A stretch of 64,000 nucleotides of DNA, from the sequence record NC_054927.1. The stretch is one strand, 5' to 3'. A program made the translations under genes and the position numbers. Source of the DNA: Escherichia phage vB_EcoM_Ozark. Of this stretch, positions 2,665 to 39,563 are shown piece by piece. How positions within the stretch are numbered: position 1 is the stretch's first letter; each line of letters starts with the position of its first letter. Below the pieces are notes generated by a model. The model saw only the letters and a list, made by a program, of their open reading frames with translations, was not told the origin of the DNA and did not search any database.

Positions 2665-3680
2665 TGTGTTGCCTCTACATATAACTGATTTGCATATTGA
2701 ATAAGTGCTTCACGATCAGAATCAGTGATGTCTGGAATTGCATTAATATACTCTTCCATCAATGTCTGAAGCGATTGAACTTCAACTTCTTCACTGTCAT
2801 CTGACTCGACAGAGTTATCAATCTTTGACACAACTCGTAATGAATGCACAACTTTCTCTAGTTCAGATTCGAACTTCGTCAGATTTTTGTCTACTTCAGT
2901 TACTATAACACGTACTGATAGATTTGTAAAATCTTTATAGTCAATTTTTCCTTTGAATGGATAATGAATTCTACGATGCCAGGTAGTATTGTTTGGAATA
3001 AATTCCATTCGTTCTGTTTCTGTGTCAAACATCCAGAACCCACGAGGGTCATTCTCGTCACCTGCAGTTAGTGTCCATGGTGTCCCAATATATCTGACGT
3101 TTGCAGCCTCAGAAATAGTATGGAAGTGACCAGACCACACTTCTTTATAAGTCTTAAGGAAATCAGGTTCAAGACCATGAGATTTCATTCCTTTATAAAA
3201 ATAAAATCCGTTCAGTTCCCAGTGACCAACACAAAAAGAAGCAGATGAAGTTTTAATATGTTCAAGAATTTCACCAGTATTTTCTTCGCACATCCAAGGA
3301 ATTAAATCAATCAAACATCCGTCAAAATCTACTGTAGTAGGCTTATCATATACTTTAACATTAGGATATTTAGCCAAAAGCTCAGTAGAAGCATTTGGAG
3401 TTAAAGTATTTTTAAAGTGCATATCATGGTTTCCTACAATAGTATGTAGTGTAATACCAGCATCATCAAGCATTTGAACTATTTCACGAGCGAACTCCAT
3501 AGTTTTATGCGTGATTGCTTTTCGCACATCAAAAATATCGCCGTATTGAATCCATGTAGTAATTCCATTTTTCTTAGAATATTCTATTGCTTGTTTAATT
3601 CCATCCAACTGAATGGATTGAACCCACTCATCATCAGCTTTAACGCCTAAATGCCAATCACCTAAATTTAAAATTTTCAT
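2661..3680 (-). CDS. 47: Recombination nuclease subunit gp47 (Mre11/SbcD-like phosphoesterase)
   Basis: 339-aa ORF; calcineurin-like phosphoesterase motifs (LNLGDWHLG, QYGDIFD, GNHD, GHWE, GHFH); ATG start; adjacent to gene 46. Confidence 0.9.
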   Translation of the reverse strand: MKILNLGDWHLGVKADDEWVQSIQLDGIKQAIEYSKKNGITTWIQYGDIFDVRKAITHKTMEFAREIVQMLDDAGITLHTIVGNHDMHFKNTLTPNASTELLAKYPNVKVYDKPTTVDFDGCLIDLIPWMCEENTGEILEHIKTSSASFCVGHWELNGFYFYKGMKSHGLEPDFLKTYKEVWSGHFHTISEAANVRYIGTPWTLTAGDENDPRGFWMFDTETERMEFIPNNTTWHRRIHYPFKGKIDYKDFTNLSVRVIVTEVDKNLTKFESELEKVVHSLRVVSKIDNSVESDDSEEVEVQSLQTLMEEYINAIPDITDSDREALIQYANQLYVEATQ

Positions 3681-8773: not shown

Positions 8774-8986
8774 CTATTCCTTACTAAGAGCAGCATTCAG
8801 CTTGTTAGTAATTTTATCCAGACGCTCATTAAACTCACTAGAAGATAAGCCCTTTTCTGGAGAAATTAAACTAATCACGAAAAATATAGCAATAAAAGGA
8901 ATAAGGAAAATAGCTCCAACTGCCATAAACAGAAAGAATGTTACAGTTGTAAGAAAATCAGCTAAACCTTTACGAAATTTATACAT
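8774..8986 (-). CDS. Small membrane protein
   Basis: 70-aa ORF with one long hydrophobic segment (TVTFFLFMAVGAIFLIPFIAIFFVISLI). Confidence 0.4.
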   Translation of the reverse strand: MYKFRKGLADFLTTVTFFLFMAVGAIFLIPFIAIFFVISLISPEKGLSSSEFNERLDKITNKLNAALSKE

Positions 8987-18016: not shown

Positions 18017-18925
18017 TTAAGATTTAAGTAAATCAACAATTTTAATTAATTTTTCACGCTCAGATTTAGCTTTACTACTCAATCCAGATAGTCTGAAAAT
18101 TTCATCGTCATACTGTTGAATAGAAATATTCAGCTCTTCAATTTGCTTATTAAAATAATCAATTTGCTCAGAATGTTTTTCATTACTGCGAACTGGTACA
18201 GGTTTTGTAGGCAATTTAGTTAAACTGGATTCATCCGGGCGATAAATTAAAATACAACTTGAACCAATCGGGCATTTAGCACCAGACACATATTCTAATG
18301 TTCCGGCTTCTTTTAAAACTTCAAAAGCTAAACAGAGATGATGCCCCATATTAACATAATCTGTAGAGCGAGCTCTGACGTAATAATCATCGCCGCGAAT
18401 ACTAAATTTAAAGCATTTAAGGTCTTCTGTATTATTGGTCTTAAAAATCATTTGTTTATCTAGACCTTTAGCTAATCGAGCGCCTAATGCTAATAATCGT
18501 CGTTGATTTTCCCACAAATCCGCAATCATTTGATCGAATGATAATTTCGGCATTAGTCGACCATAAAGGTCATATCCTTTATTATAATTGCGAAGGATTT
18601 CACTCGCGTTAATACGAGACAACGCTCCAATTTTATTAAGGGCTTTCATGATGCGATTAGATAAACCCATTCCAGACCCGTTTGTTCGTTGTAAATGTTT
18701 ATCTAATCCAAACCCAATATCAACTTTAAATTTATCTAAAATTTCAGCATGAACATCTCTGTCAATAACATTCAAATCCAAAGTTGGGTTAAATCTATGA
18801 AAAAATTTATCTGGCTCTCCACGACGAAGTATAGTCCATTCATTCAATTTTTTATTAACTAAAGATTTAATTACTGCATTGACATTATTAATTACTACTG
18901 ACATATTTTCCTCACTCAATTTCAA
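18017..18925 (-). CDS. Hypothetical protein with C-terminal coiled-coil tail
   Basis: 302-aa ORF; linker (PTKPVPV) followed by helical tail. Confidence 0.45.
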   Translation of the reverse strand: MKLSEENMSVVINNVNAVIKSLVNKKLNEWTILRRGEPDKFFHRFNPTLDLNVIDRDVHAEILDKFKVDIGFGLDKHLQRTNGSGMGLSNRIMKALNKIGALSRINASEILRNYNKGYDLYGRLMPKLSFDQMIADLWENQRRLLALGARLAKGLDKQMIFKTNNTEDLKCFKFSIRGDDYYVRARSTDYVNMGHHLCLAFEVLKEAGTLEYVSGAKCPIGSSCILIYRPDESSLTKLPTKPVPVRSNEKHSEQIDYFNKQIEELNISIQQYDDEIFRLSGLSSKAKSEREKLIKIVDLLKS

Positions 18926-19319
18926 TTTTACTAAATATACAGAATAAGATGGAACAGACTATATAAGCACCACACACAGATTGAACTAATACCATTCCAA
19001 AGAACCAAACAATATTATCAAACAATGTCTGTTTTACGTCGAAAGGACGTAAACTTACAGTAATATTATCGCCTTTTTCTATTGATGAATACATCTCTGG
19101 TGAAATATATTCGCTAAATCTATAACCGTCTTTGAGTTCATATACAGCAATAAACGATAAACTAGACCCCTTTCCTTGAGTTCCTGTAAAGGTATTAACT
19201 ACAGTAACATCATAATCTTTATAATGCATATAATCATTAATTGCGTAATAACTATATGCAACTACTACGCACAAACAACATATCAATAAATTCAATCTTT
19301 TAATTATCAACTGTTTCAT
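18912..19319 (-). CDS. Membrane protein
   Basis: 135-aa ORF with N-terminal and C-terminal hydrophobic helices. Confidence 0.4.
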   Translation of the reverse strand: MKQLIIKRLNLLICCLCVVVAYSYYAINDYMHYKDYDVTVVNTFTGTQGKGSSLSFIAVYELKDGYRFSEYISPEMYSSIEKGDNITVSLRPFDVKQTLFDNIVWFFGMVLVQSVCGAYIVCSILFCIFSKIEIE

Positions 19320-25271: not shown

Positions 25272-25658
25272 TTATTCGAGGGAAAGAAGATACTTACTCT
25301 GATAAAACATTCCAGTAATATCATCTATCGTGCTTTGGATGGCTGGAGGCATTTCTTTATAAATGCTGTTAGATTGGTCTAGTATGCGATCAATCATTTT
25401 AATTGTGTCGGTAGGAAGTTTACTGGCATCTGGAATTGAAGGTGTGTATTTTCTACCAGAATACCCCAAATATTGCTCACCAAATTTATCAATCAAATCT
25501 GGCAACTCGGAGAAAATAAAATCGTATGCTTTGTGTCTAGCATAATTTTTAGTTTCAAAATGTGCAGAATGAAAATAAGCTTGTGCAGCCATTAATAAAC
25601 CTAAGTATTCATCTGCCTTTGAAGGTTTTCCACTTTGTGAAAAGTCGCTGAATTTCAT
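25272..25658 (-). CDS. Hypothetical protein (rI.-1 position)
   Basis: 128-aa ORF; 4-nt overlap with rI; terminator hairpin immediately downstream. Confidence 0.45.
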
Positions 25659-25948
25659 TCAGTCTCCAATTTAATGTTCATAATTCTAGCGTATGATTGT
25701 GCCATCTCCGCGCCTCGTTCTATACATTCAAAATCAGAAGAGCACGGGTCATTTTTATAGGTCGTTCGCATAAAACTATAGAACTGTTCAGATGATTCTA
25801 CGCTTTTATTTTCAAAAAGCATATAAACATGTCTAATGCCAGATTCCATAAATTTATCAAAATGAGGATCGACATTTGCTTCAATCGGTGGAGATAAAGC
25901 AAACGCTAATCCTAGCATGGCAAATAGTGCCGTTGCTTTTAAGGCCAT
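25655..25948 (-). CDS. rI: Lysis-inhibition regulator rI (signal-anchored periplasmic protein)
   Basis: 97-aa ORF; MALKATALFAMLGLAFALSPPIEA signal anchor; two Cys (CSSDFEC); size and sequence match T4 rI. Confidence 0.85.
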   Translation of the reverse strand: MALKATALFAMLGLAFALSPPIEANVDPHFDKFMESGIRHVYMLFENKSVESSEQFYSFMRTTYKNDPCSSDFECIERGAEMAQSYARIMNIKLETE

Positions 25949-27386: not shown

Positions 27387-27574
27387 TATTCTTCTACGTG
27401 CTGTTTACGACCTTTCTTATCAATAAAGGTATATTCAACGAATGTTCCAATATAGTCTTTATCTACATCATGCGGACTATTAATTGGACATTTAGTACGG
27501 CAAATGCGTTCCCATTGACGAATAATTTCCACTTTGTTTTTAGGATCAAACGGATGCGGGTAATGTACTTTCAT
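27362..27574 (-). CDS. Hypothetical protein
   Basis: 70-aa ORF. Confidence 0.35.
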   Translation of the reverse strand: MKVHYPHPFDPKNKVEIIRQWERICRTKCPINSPHDVDKDYIGTFVEYTFIDKKGRKQHVEEYCLKVTWL

Positions 27575-28025
27575 AATCCACCACTATTAAATCAATATCA
27601 GGAGTAAACATGTCGATTAATTTAGAAACCTTATCCCAATCGCCGCCAGCAATACCGCAACCTATGCGTGGAATGTAAATTACTGGTTTAAACAAAAGGG
27701 TTTCTGCCTGTAGATTTAATTCTATCATGCAGTTTACTAAAGCACCATAATCAAGATTAGGACCCGGTTCATATTGCGTATACAGGTTATAGCATATACC
27801 AAATCCTGTAGGATTATGTTTAAAAACAATAGACATATCGCCTAATTTATCACGAGAACCGTACTCGGTAGTGGTTTTATCTATTTCCAAAATTTTAGGA
27901 TAGGCTCTTGCTAATTGACCTGCTACGCCGGAGCCCATTGTATGGAAGCAATTGCACCCGTGTGCAATAATATTACCTTGAAGAAATAGGGCGACAATAT
28001 CGCCCTTGATATATTTTACAATCAT
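27546..28025 (-). CDS. Macro-domain protein (predicted ADP-ribose binding/hydrolysing)
   Basis: 159-aa ORF; N-terminal GNIIAHGCNCFHTMGSGVAGQLA and later IPRIGCGIAGG resemble macro-domain glycine-rich motifs. Confidence 0.55.
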   Translation of the reverse strand: MIVKYIKGDIVALFLQGNIIAHGCNCFHTMGSGVAGQLARAYPKILEIDKTTTEYGSRDKLGDMSIVFKHNPTGFGICYNLYTQYEPGPNLDYGALVNCMIELNLQAETLLFKPVIYIPRIGCGIAGGDWDKVSKLIDMFTPDIDLIVVDYESTLPASV

Positions 28026-28369
28026 CTAGTACTCAATCCTCGATTATAAGAATCTACTAAACGGTCAACCATTGAATGACAAGCGGCTTTATCTTTCTCC
28101 TCCGCAACTGAACATTCTAAGGTATTCCACTTTTTAGCATATCGTTTTAACAATGTATCATTTTTGTATCTGCTTGATTTATCTCTTTCTCCGTCTTTAT
28201 ATGCATATATTAATTTCTGCGCAAATTCAGCTTGGCATGCTTTATTTTTCCCACAATAATCCGCGGCAGTACGGTTTACATACTCTCTAATTTCAGTATA
28301 TGATGTATCTGCTGATGCAGAAGCAGAAAATGAAATTAATCCTATACATAAAACCAAAATTTTAGTCAT
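28022..28369 (-). CDS. Secreted small protein with cleavable signal peptide (vs position)
   Basis: 115-aa ORF; MTKILVLCIGLISFSASASA signal peptide; four Cys in the mature part. Confidence 0.4.
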   Translation of the reverse strand: MTKILVLCIGLISFSASASADTSYTEIREYVNRTAADYCGKNKACQAEFAQKLIYAYKDGERDKSSRYKNDTLLKRYAKKWNTLECSVAEEKDKAACHSMVDRLVDSYNRGLSTR

Positions 28370-28907
28370 TTACTATTTCCAAAAGTTTATTATTTTTAAG
28401 GTAATTAGCCTTTTCTAGGACTTCAGAAGCATATTTAGAACCAGCTTTAACATTCCATCCCGAATTATAAGAGGATATTGCTTTTCTTATATCGCCCTTA
28501 TGTATATTTAACCAATAAGAAAGTTCAATGTACGCCCATGAAGCTGAATTGGATCGTTTATTCAACATTCTTTTTATTTCAGCATCGGTCATATTATAAC
28601 CAAGTTCCTTAACTCTTGCTCGCATAGTAGGCAAATAATTTTGGAACATTCCATAGGCGTGATGCTTTGGTTTAGATTTTAAATTAACTCCGCCAGAGCT
28701 TTCTTGCCATAAAATGGCTGCCATTATATGACCTAATCCGCTCTTGTGGATATTTTTATGTGTTTTATATTTTCCATCCTTAGAAAATTGTTCCCCGAAT
28801 TGATACGCGTAACGCATGTTATCGAGTTGGACATTACTGAAAGTATGCTCGGAGCTATGTGCCATCATTGAAATGGCCAATAGACCAGCGAGTAGTGCTT
28901 TTCTCAT
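28362..28907 (-). CDS. Periplasmic lytic transglycosylase-like protein
   Basis: 181-aa ORF; signal peptide MRKALLAGLLAISMMAHS; SLT-domain motifs in order: ES (ILWQESSGG), GMFQ, SYNSGWN. Confidence 0.55.
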   Translation of the reverse strand: MRKALLAGLLAISMMAHSSEHTFSNVQLDNMRYAYQFGEQFSKDGKYKTHKNIHKSGLGHIMAAILWQESSGGVNLKSKPKHHAYGMFQNYLPTMRARVKELGYNMTDAEIKRMLNKRSNSASWAYIELSYWLNIHKGDIRKAISSYNSGWNVKAGSKYASEVLEKANYLKNNKLLEIVND

Positions 28908-28914
28908 GCTTACC

Positions 28915-29376
28915 TCATTGAGTTTTAATTACTGCTTTAGAAGCCTTTCCTGGTAAACGACGACTGTTAATAATTGCCATCCTACATTGAAGTGACGGGT
29001 CTTTGAACTTCTCATTAGGTTTACAAACTGTAAATCCAAGCCAAAGATTTCCATCTGTGATTTCTAAACGTCCAGGACGATATTCAACCCCATCAATAAA
29101 ATCCTCGTCAATGTCAGGACGCGGAGGCATACTCAGGAATTCATTAACTTCTAAAACATGGTCTTTTATTTTATGGAATAATTCAAAAACATATGTCTCA
29201 TCAATCTCCCGCTGAATTGCGCGATCAAGAAGATGCTGAGAATATTTTAGATGAAACGATGAGACCCCTGCTGCTTTTGATGCCTCACGAATCTCATTGT
29301 TAATTTGACGAAACTCCGACTCAAAGTGACGACGAAGCTTATTTCGACGGATAAAAACTTCTGTATTGATAGTCAT
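28915..29376 (-). CDS. regB: Endoribonuclease RegB
   Basis: 153-aa ORF MTINTEVFIRRNKLRRHFESEF...; size/sequence match T4 RegB; early promoter GTTTAC-N18-TATAAT immediately upstream. Confidence 0.85.
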   Translation of the reverse strand: MTINTEVFIRRNKLRRHFESEFRQINNEIREASKAAGVSSFHLKYSQHLLDRAIQREIDETYVFELFHKIKDHVLEVNEFLSMPPRPDIDEDFIDGVEYRPGRLEITDGNLWLGFTVCKPNEKFKDPSLQCRMAIINSRRLPGKASKAVIKTQ

Positions 29377-29402
29377 GTTGTTCTCCTCTTAACTGATAGA
29401 AA

Positions 29403-29435
29403 AATTATACCACAGTCAAGAGGAAAAGTAAACAG
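29403..29435 (-). promoter_or_regulatory. Early promoter upstream of regB
   Basis: Minus strand reads GTTTAC-N15-TGG-TATAAT, the T4 early-promoter architecture. Confidence 0.6.
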
Positions 29436-29714
29436 TTATTCTTTAAATCTGATCAATTTATTCATAGACTTTGAAACTTCTGCACGAACCTCATGTAGAT
29501 TTTTGAGCTGTTCAAGACGCTGCGTATAGTAAGCAATTTCATCTTCTTCGAGACAGTCCTGTGAATCTTCTTTAAGATAACGTGCATAGTCCTGAAAAGC
29601 GTTACGAACTACTTCCTGAAAATCATCAAGACTTTGAATTTTCTTAGGAGCAGCAAATACACGACGAGGGGCAGTATAATACTCATAACCAAACCCTGCG
29701 CTTAATTGAGCCAT
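29436..29714 (-). CDS. Hypothetical protein (vs.3 position)
   Basis: ORF track begins at a GTG; first ATG gives a 92-aa protein [13 protein letters not shown]...; TAATG overlap with the upstream gene. Confidence 0.4.
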
Positions 29715-29980: not shown

Positions 29981-30194
29981 ATTTGACTTCCTCACCAGTA
30001 CATAAATCGTATTCAACTAAACGAATAGGTTCATGAATGCCATATCCATGAACAGAAATTTCTGTAGTAGGATAAATTCCATTAATATCACCCATGTTCC
30101 ATGCTTCGTTAAATTGCTGTTCGCCTGAATTACTAAACCACTCGGCGAAAGCATTTAGCACATCTTCAGAACCTTCAATAATTATCTTTGCCAT
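29973..30194 (-). CDS. Hypothetical small acidic protein
   Basis: 73-aa ORF. Confidence 0.35.
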   Translation of the reverse strand: MAKIIIEGSEDVLNAFAEWFSNSGEQQFNEAWNMGDINGIYPTTEISVHGYGIHEPIRLVEYDLCTGEEVKYD

Positions 30195-30556
30195 TACAAA
30201 CTCTCGGTAAAGGTACGAGCGATAACATCGCGCTGCTGTTCCGGAGTCAGAGAGTTAAAGCGAACTGCATAACCGGATACACGGATGGTCAGCTGCGGAT
30301 ATTTTTCCGGATGCTTAACTGCATCTTCCAGAGTTTCGCGACGCAGAACGTTTACGTTCAGGTGCTGACCACCTTCAATTTTAACTGTAGGCTGTTGCTC
30401 AATTTCAATTTCACGGGCATGCAAACCGTAGAAAATTTCTGGGTCTACAAAAGAGTCCTCTTTAAAGGTTTTAGAGACAATAATTCGTGCTTGAATACCA
30501 TCTTCAAAATAAATAGTGCCTTTGTGTGTGCCTTCAAGAATTTGATATGCTTTCAT
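30194..30556 (-). CDS. Autonomous glycyl-radical cofactor (GrcA/YfiD-like; T4 Y06I-like)
   Basis: 120-aa ORF ending in the glycyl-radical signature [26 protein letters not shown] typical of pyruvate formate-lyase C-termini. Confidence 0.8.
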
Positions 30557-38992: not shown

Positions 38993-39415
38993 TCAGCCTT
39001 CATCAACAATAGTATGAGTATGGGCATTTACGATTTGCCACCAATCAAAGCGATTAGAACCATACATCGGTTTGTTTTCATTTTCTTTGATAATATCACG
39101 GAGTTCATCTTCGGTAGCGGCTTTCGCGATTAAATCAGCATATCCACCACGAGGATAATAATTATCACCTGCAAAAAGTAAAAAATTTGGTGTAATATTA
39201 TTGAACTCTTCAAGAGTAATAACTGTTCCTGATGGTAATTGAACAATCTCTACATAGTTATATCCTAATTTTTGAGCAGCATCTACTGCTTCAAGCAGAG
39301 TATCATGAGCCCGTCCTATTTGGCAATTTGGCTTTTTAGATGGATTAGCCTGATAATCCGCGTACACTTTATACATTCTATTCACCTTTAGAAATTTTAT
39401 CCATAACGATAGCAA
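38993..39415 (-). CDS. Hypothetical protein
   Basis: 140-aa ORF; true start may be the internal Met (MYKVYADYQ...). Confidence 0.4.
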   Translation of the reverse strand: MLSLWIKFLKVNRMYKVYADYQANPSKKPNCQIGRAHDTLLEAVDAAQKLGYNYVEIVQLPSGTVITLEEFNNITPNFLLFAGDNYYPRGGYADLIAKAATEDELRDIIKENENKPMYGSNRFDWWQIVNAHTHTIVDEG

Positions 39416-39563
39416 TTAAACCAATTACAAATGCTACTACAAGTGAAAACACATTTTCTGCTGTAGTTAATAATCCGCATATAAATCCAACAAACATTGA
39501 AAAACTAAAAGCGGAAGCAGAAATTGCAATAGCAACATTTCGAATTAATTCACAGCGTTTCAT
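39378..39563 (-). CDS. Small membrane protein
   Basis: 61-aa ORF, two hydrophobic helices; directly downstream of a promoter/stem-loop cassette. Confidence 0.3.
   Translation of the reverse strand: MKRCELIRNVAIAISASAFSFSMFVGFICGLLTTAENVFSLVVAFVIGLIAIVMDKISKGE

What the first reader, a model, noticed from the sequence alone, without database searches (positions are those of the whole stretch)
28022..28907. Two signal-peptide proteins upstream of regB, one a lytic transglycosylase-like enzyme
28362-28907 has a signal peptide and SLT-type motifs (ES, GMFQ, SYNSGWN); the overlapping 28022-28369 gene encodes a 115-aa secreted Cys-containing protein. A periplasmic murein enzyme separate from the endolysin and the gp5 lysozyme is notable and could act in lysis control or cell-wall remodelling.
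Basis: seen in the sequence. Interest (0 to 1): 0.4.

Follow-up and report, generated by a model that had tools for sequence, protein, structure and literature searches.

The report
T4 vs.1–vs exported gene pair
These are the known phage T4 genes vs.1 (a secreted cell-wall-cutting enzyme look-alike) and vs (named a "valyl-tRNA synthetase modifier"); the enzyme similarity is already published, but vs looks like a secreted partner of vs.1, which does not fit its name.

Summary
Both ORFs lie on the minus strand, overlap by 8 nt, and carry Sec-type signal peptides. They are 100% identical to T4 ORF 61.4 (vs.1) and ORF 60.9 (vs). They sit downstream of regB in transcription, not upstream.

Vs.1 passes the Pfam SLT threshold and has a GH23 lysozyme-like predicted fold. 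Its Glu69 and the GMFQ and YNxG motifs are invariant. The SLT similarity was published in 2006, and vs.1 is non-essential, so the finding as stated is already known.

- 63 of 64 Vs family members have signal peptides and one cluster has a lipobox.
- All 64 keep four cysteines.
- The mature part is predicted to be a four-helix bundle.
- Vs-like genes directly follow vs.1 in 33 of 33 T4-like loci, and vs.1 precedes vs in 27 of 27.
- The pairing survives in an Acinetobacter phage where the flanking genes differ.

My best reading is an early, exported peptidoglycan enzyme plus a periplasmic partner. That conflicts with a cytoplasmic ValRS role, and I could not resolve the conflict here. A 2025 transposon screen found vs to be the T4 gene most depleted in minimal medium, with vs.1 weakly depleted.

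The parts
29404..29432 (-). Sigma-70-type early promoter-like site upstream of regB (TTTACT-17-TATAAT with TG), a candidate start of the regB-vs.1-vs-tk.4 transcript
   Evidence: 10 of 12 consensus matches; a consensus match only. The T4 record X04567 annotates a potential -10 region and RBS for ORF 61.9 at the equivalent place.
28915..29376 (-). regB (RegB endoribonuclease), the upstream neighbour; context only
   Evidence: Pfam REGB_T4 E=8.1e-69; phrog_1323.
28362..28907 (-). vs.1 CDS (181 aa), precursor of an exported SLT/GH23-like enzyme
   Evidence: 100% identical to T4 ORF 61.4. Pfam SLT 25.1 bits against a cutoff of 21.3. 21 of 22 homologs hit SLT. AF2 pLDDT 88; best Foldseek matches are GH23 proteins.
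28854..28907 (-). Vs.1 signal peptide (residues 1-18, MRKALLAGLLAISMMAHS; predicted cleavage AHS|SE)
   Evidence: Heuristic check of charge, hydrophobic stretch and cleavage site. 75 of 76 family representatives are signal-like. Low pLDDT in the model. Cleavage was not tested.
28446..28727 (-). SLT domain match (residues 61-154), including the catalytic Glu69 codon at 28701-28703, GMFQ (86-89) and SYNSG (146-150)
   Evidence: One search gives the domain coordinates. E69, G86, F88, Q89, Y147, N148 and G150 are invariant in 22 sequences down to 41% identity. The W-x-E-S/T motif is present in 76 of 76.
28362..28369 (-). 8-nt overlap of the vs.1 stop and the vs start (ATGACTAA), suggesting translational coupling
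   Evidence: The equivalent junction is -8 to +3 nt in 33 of 33 related loci.
28022..28369 (-). vs CDS (115 aa; annotated 'valyl-tRNA synthetase modifier'), a predicted exported 4-Cys four-helix protein
   Evidence: 100% identical to T4 ORF 60.9. phrog_1256 E=1.7e-39. PF26829 is precomputed on a 98%-identical cluster. AF2: residues 21-113 mostly above pLDDT 90, helices 22-39, 43-63, 70-86 and 91-113.
28310..28369 (-). Vs signal peptide (residues 1-20, MTKILVLCIGLISFSASASA; predicted cleavage ASA|DT)
   Evidence: 63 of 64 family representatives are signal-like; one cluster and three loci have a lipobox LSGC instead. pLDDT is below 50 for residues 1-18.
27546..28025 (-). tk.4 (macro-domain protein, named AdfM in a 2025 preprint), the downstream neighbour; overlaps the vs stop by 4 nt (ATGA); context only
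   Evidence: Pfam Macro E=5.8e-8. Anti-DarTG2 role reported in bioRxiv 10.1101/2025.11.20.689424.

Best explanation
The locus is the T4 early gene pair vs.1-vs.

Well supported:
- Both products are made with cleavable Sec signal peptides and end up outside the cytoplasm.
- Mature Vs.1 (about 18.8 kDa) is a single-domain GH23/SLT-family enzyme with an intact catalytic Glu69.
- Mature Vs (about 11.0 kDa) is predicted to be a four-helix bundle. It has four invariant cysteines at the two helix-hairpin turns.
- The two genes are translationally coupled and co-inherited across T4-like phages.

Inferred:
- Vs.1 cleaves peptidoglycan glycan strands, most likely as a lytic transglycosylase. No second conserved acidic residue follows the catalytic Glu, as it does in g-type lysozymes.
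- It acts in the periplasm of the infected cell from early in infection, independently of holin and endolysin.
- The four Cys of Vs form two disulfides, C39-C45 and C86-C97.
- Vs is the periplasmic partner of Vs.1, either a regulator/inhibitor or an adaptor/chaperone. The pair tunes wall remodelling in a way that raises phage fitness, most visibly in minimal medium.

Consequence: the label 'valyl-tRNA synthetase modifier' on this ORF is hard to reconcile with its predicted location.
For: Identity:
- 100% to T4 ORF 61.4 and ORF 60.9; records name them vs.1 and vs.

Vs.1 as an enzyme:
- Pfam SLT above the gathering score; 21 of 22 homologs match.
- Best Foldseek hits are MltD, g-type lysozyme, a GH23 chitinase, Slt and phi6 P5, with probability about 1.0.
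- E69, GMFQ and YNxG are invariant.

Export:
- Signal-like N-termini in 75 of 76 Vs.1 and 63 of 64 Vs representatives.
- A lipobox variant MKKLFVLLVVFALSGC occurs in the Vs family.
- The four-Cys pattern is present in 64 of 64.
- vs has no in-frame internal start that could give a cytoplasmic isoform.
- N-terminally His-tagged Vs expressed in E. coli was insoluble (PMC8076793).

Coupling:
- A Vs-family ORF lies directly downstream in 33 of 33 IMG/VR Vs.1 loci, with a junction of -8 to +3 nt.
- Vs.1 lies directly upstream in 27 of 27 Vs loci.
- The two Vs sub-types are homologous (hhalign 98.95%, E=9.7e-18).
- The pair persists in Acinetobacter phage Mokit, where regB and tk.4 are absent.

Fitness (HIDEN-SEQ preprint, Data S8):
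- After liquid LB passage, mean insertion counts are 26.6 for vs and 22.6 for vs.1. Neighbours are 179 (regB), 290 (tk.4) and 652 (vs.3).
- In M9Glc, vs falls by log2FC -2.19 (padj 0) and vs.1 by -0.87 (p=0.0055, padj 0.155).
Against: - No enzymatic, localisation or binding experiment exists for either protein in the literature I could search.
- Similarity of Vs.1 to solved SLT enzymes is weak. Foldseek E is at best 8e-3 with TM about 0.5, and sequence searches of PDB are not significant.
- Adjacency could reflect general T4-like synteny.
- Both mature proteins are basic (pI 9.65 and 8.87), so there is no obvious charge complementarity.
- Vs is naturally damaged while Vs.1 is intact in phage vB_EcoM_005 (internal deletion) and in locus L068 (truncation). 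Aeromonas phage 31, Det7 and Felixounaviruses have Vs.1-like genes with no Vs-like ORF in the 2-kb flanks fetched. So Vs is not an obligatory antidote.
- The depletion of vs.1 insertions could be a polar effect on vs.
- The classical biochemistry, recalled from memory (Neidhardt, Marchin and co-workers, 1966-1980), describes a phage peptide of about 10 kDa bound to cytoplasmic ValRS, with in vivo effects.
- The four Cys could bind a metal instead of forming disulfides. I had no access to model coordinates.
Confidence: 0.55

Rival explanations
1. Classical reading. ORF 60.9 really is the tau peptide that binds and modifies cytoplasmic valyl-tRNA synthetase. Its hydrophobic N-terminus is not used for export, or only part of the protein is exported. 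Its position next to vs.1 is inherited synteny, and Vs.1 is a functionally unrelated periplasmic enzyme.
For: The annotation is universal in phage records, PHROGs and PF26829. The mature size of 11.0 kDa is close to the roughly 10 kDa I recall for tau. The vs knockout is defective specifically in minimal medium, which fits a role in aminoacylation when amino acids must be synthesised. The weaker vs.1 depletion could be polarity on vs.
Against: A signal peptide is conserved in 63 of 64 family members, with K/R before and acidic residues after the hydrophobic stretch. A lipobox variant exists, and four Cys are invariant. No internal start exists. The pairing with Vs.1 persists where the flanking genes differ. 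The original GenBank record leaves ORF 60.9 unnamed, and I could not retrieve the basis of the assignment.
Confidence: 0.3
2. Vs.1 is an auxiliary endolysin that contributes to host lysis at the end of infection, and Vs is a lysis-timing factor.
For: It has the SLT fold and catalytic residues. Felixounavirus homologs are annotated 'putative lysin' and lie between rIIB and the spanin genes. In phage Mokit the pair lies near rI. A lysis role was suggested in PMC1524935.
Against: The gene sits in an early operon behind regB, with an early-type promoter. It has its own Sec signal, so it needs no holin. vs.1 is non-essential (46 of 52 TA sites hit). Insertions in e are nearly absent (mean 2.5) and t is classed essential, so Vs.1 cannot replace the endolysin.
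Confidence: 0.1
3. Both proteins are exported, but Vs acts on a different periplasmic target. It might act like Spackle on incoming phage lysozyme, or on host lytic transglycosylases. Vs.1 would then act alone.
For: T4 has precedent for a small helical periplasmic protein that blocks a lysozyme (Spackle; PMC7650644, listed). Vs can be lost while Vs.1 stays intact.
Confidence: 0.12
4. Vs.1 is a catalytically dead, peptidoglycan-binding remnant of an SLT enzyme.
For: The Pfam score is weak and PDB sequence searches are not significant.
Against: The catalytic Glu and all SLT signature motifs are invariant down to about 30% identity, including the Det7, Felixounavirus and Acinetobacter homologs.
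Confidence: 0.05

Closest known systems
Bacteriophage T4 gene vs.1 product (ORF 61.4 of X04567; PHROG 600, 'unknown function')
   Same: 100% amino-acid identity over 181 residues, with the same neighbours regB and vs.
   Different: Nothing; it is the same protein. The window DNA is about 98.5% identical to other Tequatroviruses.
Bacteriophage T4 gene vs product (ORF 60.9; 'valyl-tRNA synthetase modifier'; PF26829, PHROG 1256)
   Same: 100% identity over 115 residues.
   Different: Nothing in sequence. The named function assumes a cytoplasmic protein, whereas the family looks exported.
Family-1 lytic transglycosylases and the GH23 lysozyme-like superfamily (Slt70/Slt, MltD, g-type lysozyme, phi6 P5; Pfam SLT PF01464)
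   Same: Pfam SLT above threshold, a lysozyme-like helical predicted fold, and the Glu-Ser, G-x-x-Q and Y-N-x-G motifs.
   Different: Very divergent (25 bits; Foldseek TM about 0.5). It is a single small domain with a conserved N-terminal extension of about 40 residues (FSNxQxDNLxYAYxFGEQ). It is phage-encoded and in an early operon. Activity is untested.
Small Sec-exported 'specialised' lytic transglycosylases of secretion and conjugation systems (VirB1, IpgF, EtgA, P19). Comparison from my own knowledge, not tested here.
   Same: About 150-180 aa, a signal peptide plus one SLT domain, acting locally in the periplasm rather than lysing the cell.
   Different: No associated envelope-spanning apparatus is evident here. 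The partner here is a small 4-Cys helical protein.
Periplasmic enzyme-partner pairs: T4 Spackle with gp5 lysozyme, PliG/Ivy inhibitors, and T6SS muramidase effector-immunity pairs (Tge-Tgi). Analogy from my own knowledge.
   Same: A peptidoglycan-cleaving enzyme and a small exported (sometimes lipoprotein) protein encoded immediately downstream.
   Different: Vs has no detectable sequence or fold similarity to any of these. Binding is untested. Both proteins are made in the same cell and sent to the same compartment.

Membership tests
Pfam SLT / GH23 family-1 lytic transglycosylase | Match to the SLT profile above the curated gathering score | tested here: met
   25.1 bits against a cutoff of 21.3, E=1.4e-5, residues 61-154. 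21 of 22 homologs match; best E=1.3e-7.
Pfam SLT / GH23 family-1 lytic transglycosylase | Catalytic Glu in a Glu-Ser motif, conserved across the family | tested here: met
   E69-S70 is invariant in 22 of 22. W-x-E-S/T is present in 76 of 76. It is also present in the Mokit, Det7 and garuso homologs. Equivalence to the catalytic Glu of solved enzymes is inferred from the motif, not from a residue-level structural alignment.
Pfam SLT / GH23 family-1 lytic transglycosylase | G-[LM]-[MF]-Q and [AS]-Y-N-x-G signature motifs | tested here: met
   GMFQ 86-89 and SYNSG 146-150. G86, F88, Q89, Y147, N148 and G150 are invariant.
Pfam SLT / GH23 family-1 lytic transglycosylase | Lysozyme-like (goose-type/SLT) fold | tested here: met
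   AF2 model with pLDDT 88. Top Foldseek PDB hits are all GH23 (MltD 8rhi, g-lysozyme 3gxk, chitinase 3w6e, Slt 5ohu, phi6 P5 4dq5), with probability 0.97-1.0. E-values are only 8e-3 to 0.3 and TM 0.4-0.54.
Pfam SLT / GH23 family-1 lytic transglycosylase | Non-hydrolytic cleavage of MurNAc-GlcNAc bonds giving 1,6-anhydroMurNAc | not testable with these tools
   Needs a muropeptide assay. The lack of a conserved second acidic residue after E69 only hints at transglycosylase rather than hydrolase chemistry.
Sec-exported (periplasmic) proteins with a type I signal peptide | Positively charged start, a hydrophobic core of about 10-15 residues, and a small-x-small cleavage site; conserved in character across homologs | tested here: met
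   (my own heuristic, not SignalP). 75 of 76 Vs.1 and 63 of 64 Vs. The hydrophobic stretch is too short for a membrane anchor or SAR domain (inference).
Sec-exported (periplasmic) proteins with a type I signal peptide | Actual cleavage and periplasmic location | not testable with these tools
   Needs fractionation, PhoA fusions or N-terminal sequencing.
Vs family (PF26829 / PHROG 1256) | Profile match over the full length | tested here: met
   phrog_1256 E=1.7e-39, residues 1-115. PF26829 is precomputed on the 98%-identical cluster P0078 and on all relatives. PF26829 is not in the local Pfam copy.
Valyl-tRNA synthetase modifier (functional class, tau peptide) | Located in the cytoplasm, where ValRS is | tested here: not met
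   Predicted exported: signal peptides, a lipobox variant, four invariant Cys and no internal start. This is a prediction only.
Valyl-tRNA synthetase modifier (functional class, tau peptide) | Physical binding to ValRS and conversion to the urea-resistant form; a peptide of about 10 kDa | not testable with these tools
   The mature mass of 11.0 kDa is compatible. The basis of the ORF assignment could not be retrieved.
Phage endolysin (lysis cassette) | Required for lysis, expressed late, released through holin or a SAR mechanism | tested here: not met
   The gene is in an early operon after regB. vs.1 is non-essential, whereas e insertions are nearly absent and t is classed essential in HIDEN-SEQ.
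Enzyme-inhibitor or effector-immunity type pair | Adjacent, co-expressed genes with products in the same compartment | tested here: met
   33 of 33 and 27 of 27 adjacency, overlapping junctions, and both predicted exported.
Enzyme-inhibitor or effector-immunity type pair | Direct binding and modulation of enzyme activity | not testable with these tools
   No multimer prediction or assay was available. Natural Vs-damaged phages with intact Vs.1 argue against an obligatory antidote.

The most novel reading that the evidence does not exclude
The T4 ORF that has carried the name vs ('valyl-tRNA synthetase modifier') for about 40 years is not the cytoplasmic tau peptide. It is a disulfide-bonded periplasmic partner of the exported SLT-like enzyme Vs.1. 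The minimal-medium defect of vs mutants would then reflect mis-regulated cell-wall remodelling rather than aminoacylation. The true ValRS modifier would be encoded elsewhere in the rI-e interval. The name now on about 800 phage genome records and a Pfam family would be wrong.
Probability: 0.35. Interest if true: 0.65.

Novelty: already known. Interest (0 to 1): 0.4.

Why it matters
As stated, the finding re-discovers T4 vs.1, whose SLT similarity is published, and vs. On its own it adds little.

It matters for three reasons.
- Neither gene has a demonstrated mechanism.
- A 2025 genome-wide screen singled out vs as the T4 gene most needed in minimal medium.
- The sequence-family evidence here says the Vs family is exported and locked to Vs.1.

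If that is right, a textbook annotation needs revisiting. The 60-year-old question of what the ValRS modification is for would be separated from this ORF. T4-like phages would have a conserved early periplasmic wall-remodelling module with a measurable fitness phenotype. All of this can be tested with simple genetics and fractionation.

Tried and rejected
- **PDB sequence searches.** Single sequences and family profiles gave nothing significant for either protein.
- **Other libraries.** NCBIfam and PADLOC gave nothing meaningful.
- **Classical vs literature.** Miller 2003 (PMC150520) and Müller & Marchin 1975 (PMC354445) are not held. Searches on Marchin, ValRS and ValS returned nothing useful. 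The original GenBank record leaves ORF 60.9 unnamed.
- **Cytoplasmic isoform from an internal start.** Rejected. There is no in-frame ATG, GTG or TTG between residues 6 and 72.
- **SAR domain or membrane anchor instead of a cleavable signal.** Rejected by inference. The hydrophobic stretches are about 13 residues long and are followed by small-x-small sites.
- **Vs as a strict antitoxin-like inhibitor.** Weakened. Vs-damaged phages with intact Vs.1 exist, and vs.1 insertions are themselves depleted.
- **A hidden Vs-like ORF near the Vs.1-like genes of Aeromonas phage 31, Det7 and garuso.** None was found in the 2-kb flanks.
- **Mirror-tree co-evolution.** Not run, because it cannot be told apart from shared phylogeny.
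Full report
**What is there**

The window is a Tequatrovirus (T4-like) genome segment. Bases 27500-29500 are 98-98.5% identical to many T4-type phages. Both ORFs of the finding are on the minus strand:
- 28362-28907 encodes 181 aa.
- 28022-28369 encodes 115 aa.
- They overlap by 8 nt (ATGACTAA).

The proteins are 100% identical to ORF 61.4 and ORF 60.9 of the original T4 58.3-65.5 kb sequence, X04567. Annotated relatives name them vs.1 and vs, the latter as 'modifier of valyl-tRNA synthetase'.

The transcriptional order is regB (28915-29376), vs.1, vs, then tk.4 (27546-28025). The pair is therefore downstream of regB, not upstream as the finding's title says. An early-type promoter-like site lies upstream of regB at 29432-29404. 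The T4 record annotates potential promoter elements and ribosome-binding sites in the same places.

**Vs.1**

- It matches Pfam SLT above the curated threshold: 25.1 bits against 21.3, E=1.4e-5, residues 61-154.
- 21 of 22 homologs spanning 41-82% identity match SLT too.
- Its own PHROG family (phrog_600) is 'unknown function'. Weaker hits go to lytic tail proteins and endolysin-domain proteins.
- In the 22-sequence alignment, E69 is invariant, as are G86, F88 and Q89 of the GMFQ motif and Y147, N148 and G150 of the SYNSG motif. All 76 full-length cluster representatives keep W-x-E-S/T.
- The AlphaFold2 model is confident (pLDDT 88).
- Its best Foldseek PDB matches are all GH23 lysozyme-like proteins: MltD, goose-type lysozyme, a GH23 chitinase, Slt and phi6 P5. 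Probability is about 1.0, but E-values are modest (8e-3 and up) and TM is about 0.5.
- Sequence searches of PDB are not significant.

Vs.1 is therefore a divergent but genuine GH23/SLT-type protein. No second conserved acid follows E69, which hints at transglycosylase rather than hydrolase chemistry. That is inference.

The N-terminus (MRKALLAGLLAISMMAHS|SE) has the features of a cleavable signal peptide. 75 of 76 relatives share them, although the sequence itself is not conserved.

**Prior knowledge on Vs.1**

The SLT similarity and a possible lysis role were published in 2006 for six T4-like phages, citing an earlier PSI-BLAST match to lysozyme (PMC1524935). I found no experimental study of Vs.1.

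**Vs**

The 115-aa protein is the member of the pair that repays attention.
- **Signal peptide.** It reads MTKILVLCIGLISFSASASA|DT.
- **Cysteines.** Four are invariant in the mature part: C39, C45, C86 and C97.
- **Predicted structure.** AlphaFold2 gives a confident four-helix bundle for residues 21-113, with helices at 22-39, 43-63, 70-86 and 91-113. The signal peptide is disordered. The cysteines sit at the two helix-hairpin turns, in a C-x5-C and a C-x10-C arrangement. That would fit two stapling disulfides. A metal site is also conceivable, and I could not inspect coordinates.
- **Fold relatives.** No informative relative was found.
- **Family-wide features.** Across the family, 63 of 64 full-length cluster representatives have a signal-like N-terminus. 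The exception looks like a truncated gene call. All 64 keep the four-Cys pattern.
- **Lipobox variant.** One cluster and three loci replace the signal peptidase I site with a canonical lipobox, MKKLFVLLVVFALSGC.
- **No cytoplasmic isoform.** vs has no in-frame alternative start between residues 6 and 72, so a cytoplasmic isoform by internal initiation is not available.
- **Cytoplasmic expression.** N-terminally His-tagged Vs expressed in E. coli went to inclusion bodies (PMC8076793). That is what one might expect of a disulfide-bonded secreted protein, but it is weak evidence.

**Coupling of the two genes**

- In 33 of 33 distinct IMG/VR loci with a Vs.1 homolog (43-100% identity), the next ORF begins -8 to +3 nt from the vs.1 stop. 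It encodes a 99-122-aa signal-peptide protein with the four-Cys pattern. Two of these are damaged by a deletion or truncation.
- All 27 loci found with the Vs profile have Vs.1 directly upstream.
- The partners fall into two sub-types that are clearly homologous (hhalign 98.95%, E=9.7e-18, full length, all Cys aligned). Both are already covered by PF26829 and often named 'valyl tRNA synthetase modifier'.
- In Acinetobacter phage Mokit the pair is intact. There regB and tk.4 are missing, and the neighbours are other signal-peptide proteins and rI. This argues that the pairing is more than frozen synteny.

There are exceptions. Aeromonas phage 31, Kuttervirus Det7 and Felixounaviruses have Vs.1-like genes, and no Vs-like ORF lies in the 2-kb flanks fetched for them. 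Vs.1-like genes occur in 2044 phage records, whereas the T4-type Vs query finds 794.

**Experimental context**

A 2025 preprint mapped T4 gene fitness by transposon sequencing (bioRxiv 10.1101/2025.11.20.689424). The main points are these.
- vs was the gene most strongly depleted in M9-glucose relative to LB. A vs knockout plaqued poorly on M9.
- Both genes are non-essential on LB: 30 of 32 TA sites were hit in vs and 46 of 52 in vs.1.

Mean insertion counts in their Data S8:

| Gene | LB (liquid) | M9Glc | log2FC | Significance |
|---|---|---|---|---|
| vs | 26.6 | 5.0 | -2.19 | padj 0 |
| vs.1 | 22.6 | 11.9 | -0.87 | p=0.0055, padj 0.155 |
| regB | 178.6 | 403.0 | +1.17 | p=0.049, padj 0.80 |
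| tk.4 | 289.6 | 275.0 | -0.07 | not significant |
| vs.3 | 652.1 | 626.2 | -0.06 | not significant |

In the solid-medium reference library the counts were 103 for vs and 76 for vs.1. So both genes, and only these two in the neighbourhood, carry a fitness cost when disrupted. This fits a shared function. It could also be a polar effect of vs.1 insertions on vs. The authors read the M9 phenotype through the ValRS annotation.

**The conflict**

From memory, the classical work by Neidhardt, Marchin, McClain and Müller (1966-1980) described a phage-coded peptide of about 10 kDa. It binds cytoplasmic ValRS and changes its properties, with in vivo effects on valS(ts) hosts. The vs locus was mapped between rI and e.

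The mature Vs mass of 11.0 kDa fits that size, but a periplasmic location does not fit the function. I could not retrieve how ORF 60.9 was equated with vs. The GenBank record leaves it unnamed and the key papers are not held. I therefore treat the assignment as unverified rather than wrong.

**Most likely mechanism**

I commit to the following, with overall confidence of about 0.55.
- vs.1 and vs are co-translated early and both products are exported through Sec.
- Vs.1 cuts glycan strands locally in the infected cell's wall, independently of the holin-endolysin pathway.
- Vs, oxidised by the Dsb system, binds Vs.1 as a regulator or adaptor.
- The pair improves phage yield, most visibly in minimal medium.

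Supported here (from sequence, homology and structure prediction, not experiment): gene identity, the SLT/GH23 fold and motifs, the signal-peptide and Cys conservation, the genetic coupling, and the fitness data. Inferred: enzymatic activity, cleavage and location, disulfides, physical interaction, and the direction of regulation.

A strict toxin-antidote relation is unlikely for two reasons. Vs-damaged phages keep an intact Vs.1, and vs.1 insertions are themselves depleted.

A role as a second endolysin is also unlikely. The genes are in an early operon with their own signal peptides. Insertions in e are nearly absent and t is classed essential, while vs.1 is not.

**Verdict**

- The feature is already known as T4 vs.1 and vs.
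- The residual interest is the mismatch between the name of Vs and its predicted biology. This is now testable because a phenotype exists.

Noticed in passing
window 27546-28025 (-): tk.4, directly downstream of vs with a 4-nt ATGA overlap, is a macro-domain protein (Pfam Macro E=5.8e-8). A 2025 preprint names it AdfM and reports that it counteracts the DarTG2 defence system.
   Followed up: partly
window 27988-28006 (both strands): A GC-rich perfect hairpin (AGGGCGATATTGTCGCCCT) lies 16 nt after the vs stop, inside the first codons of tk.4. The terminator scan picked it up on both strands. It might attenuate transcription or affect tk.4 translation.
   Followed up: no
L004 2402-2659 (phage vB_EcoM_005) and L068 3049-3246: These are natural Vs variants with an intact Vs.1 upstream. 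One is an 85-aa form with an internal deletion that removes the first Cys pair and helix 2. The other is a 65-aa truncated lipoprotein form. They could be real losses or sequencing errors.
   Followed up: partly
L065, L066 and L069 (about 3049-3375), and protein P0096: A sub-lineage of Vs-family proteins carries a canonical lipobox (LSGC) instead of a signal peptidase I site, so it is predicted to be a lipoprotein.
   Followed up: partly
L006 2824-3847 (Acinetobacter phage Mokit): Downstream of the vs.1-vs pair lie two more small proteins with hydrophobic N-termini (141 aa and 99 aa), then the antiholin gene rI. Together they form a cluster of predicted envelope proteins.
   Followed up: no
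L008 2001-2549 (Felixounavirus garuso) and L007 1953-2570 (Kuttervirus Det7 gp70): Vs.1-like exported SLT proteins exist outside Straboviridae with no Vs-like ORF in the flanks fetched. In Felixounavirus the gene is annotated 'putative lysin' and sits between rIIB and pnk, near the spanin genes. These homologs carry 3-4 Cys of their own, whereas T4 Vs.1 has none.
   Followed up: partly
window 18912-19319 (-): A 135-aa ORF with a strongly hydrophobic N-terminus and 6 Cys (phrog_2547, unknown function). It is another candidate envelope protein in the window.
   Followed up: partly
window 25655-25948 (-): rI (lysis-inhibition antiholin, phrog_1246) lies about 2 kb from the pair and was also flagged by the signal-peptide heuristic. 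Two further small hydrophobic-N-terminus ORFs of unknown function are at 8774-8986 (phrog_1930) and 39378-39563 (phrog_1692).
   Followed up: partly
window 30194-30556 (-): vs.6 (120 aa) ends in a glycyl-radical-type motif (RVSGYAVRF). PMC1524935 reported a strong Gly_radical Pfam match. It is probably a stand-alone glycyl-radical 'spare part' protein.
   Followed up: no
AP018814.1 (phage T6) 59938-60481: The vs.1 match in this T6 record is split into two pieces at 99.4% identity, and the annotation under it is odd ('rI antiholin'). This suggests a frameshift or an annotation problem in that record.
   Followed up: no
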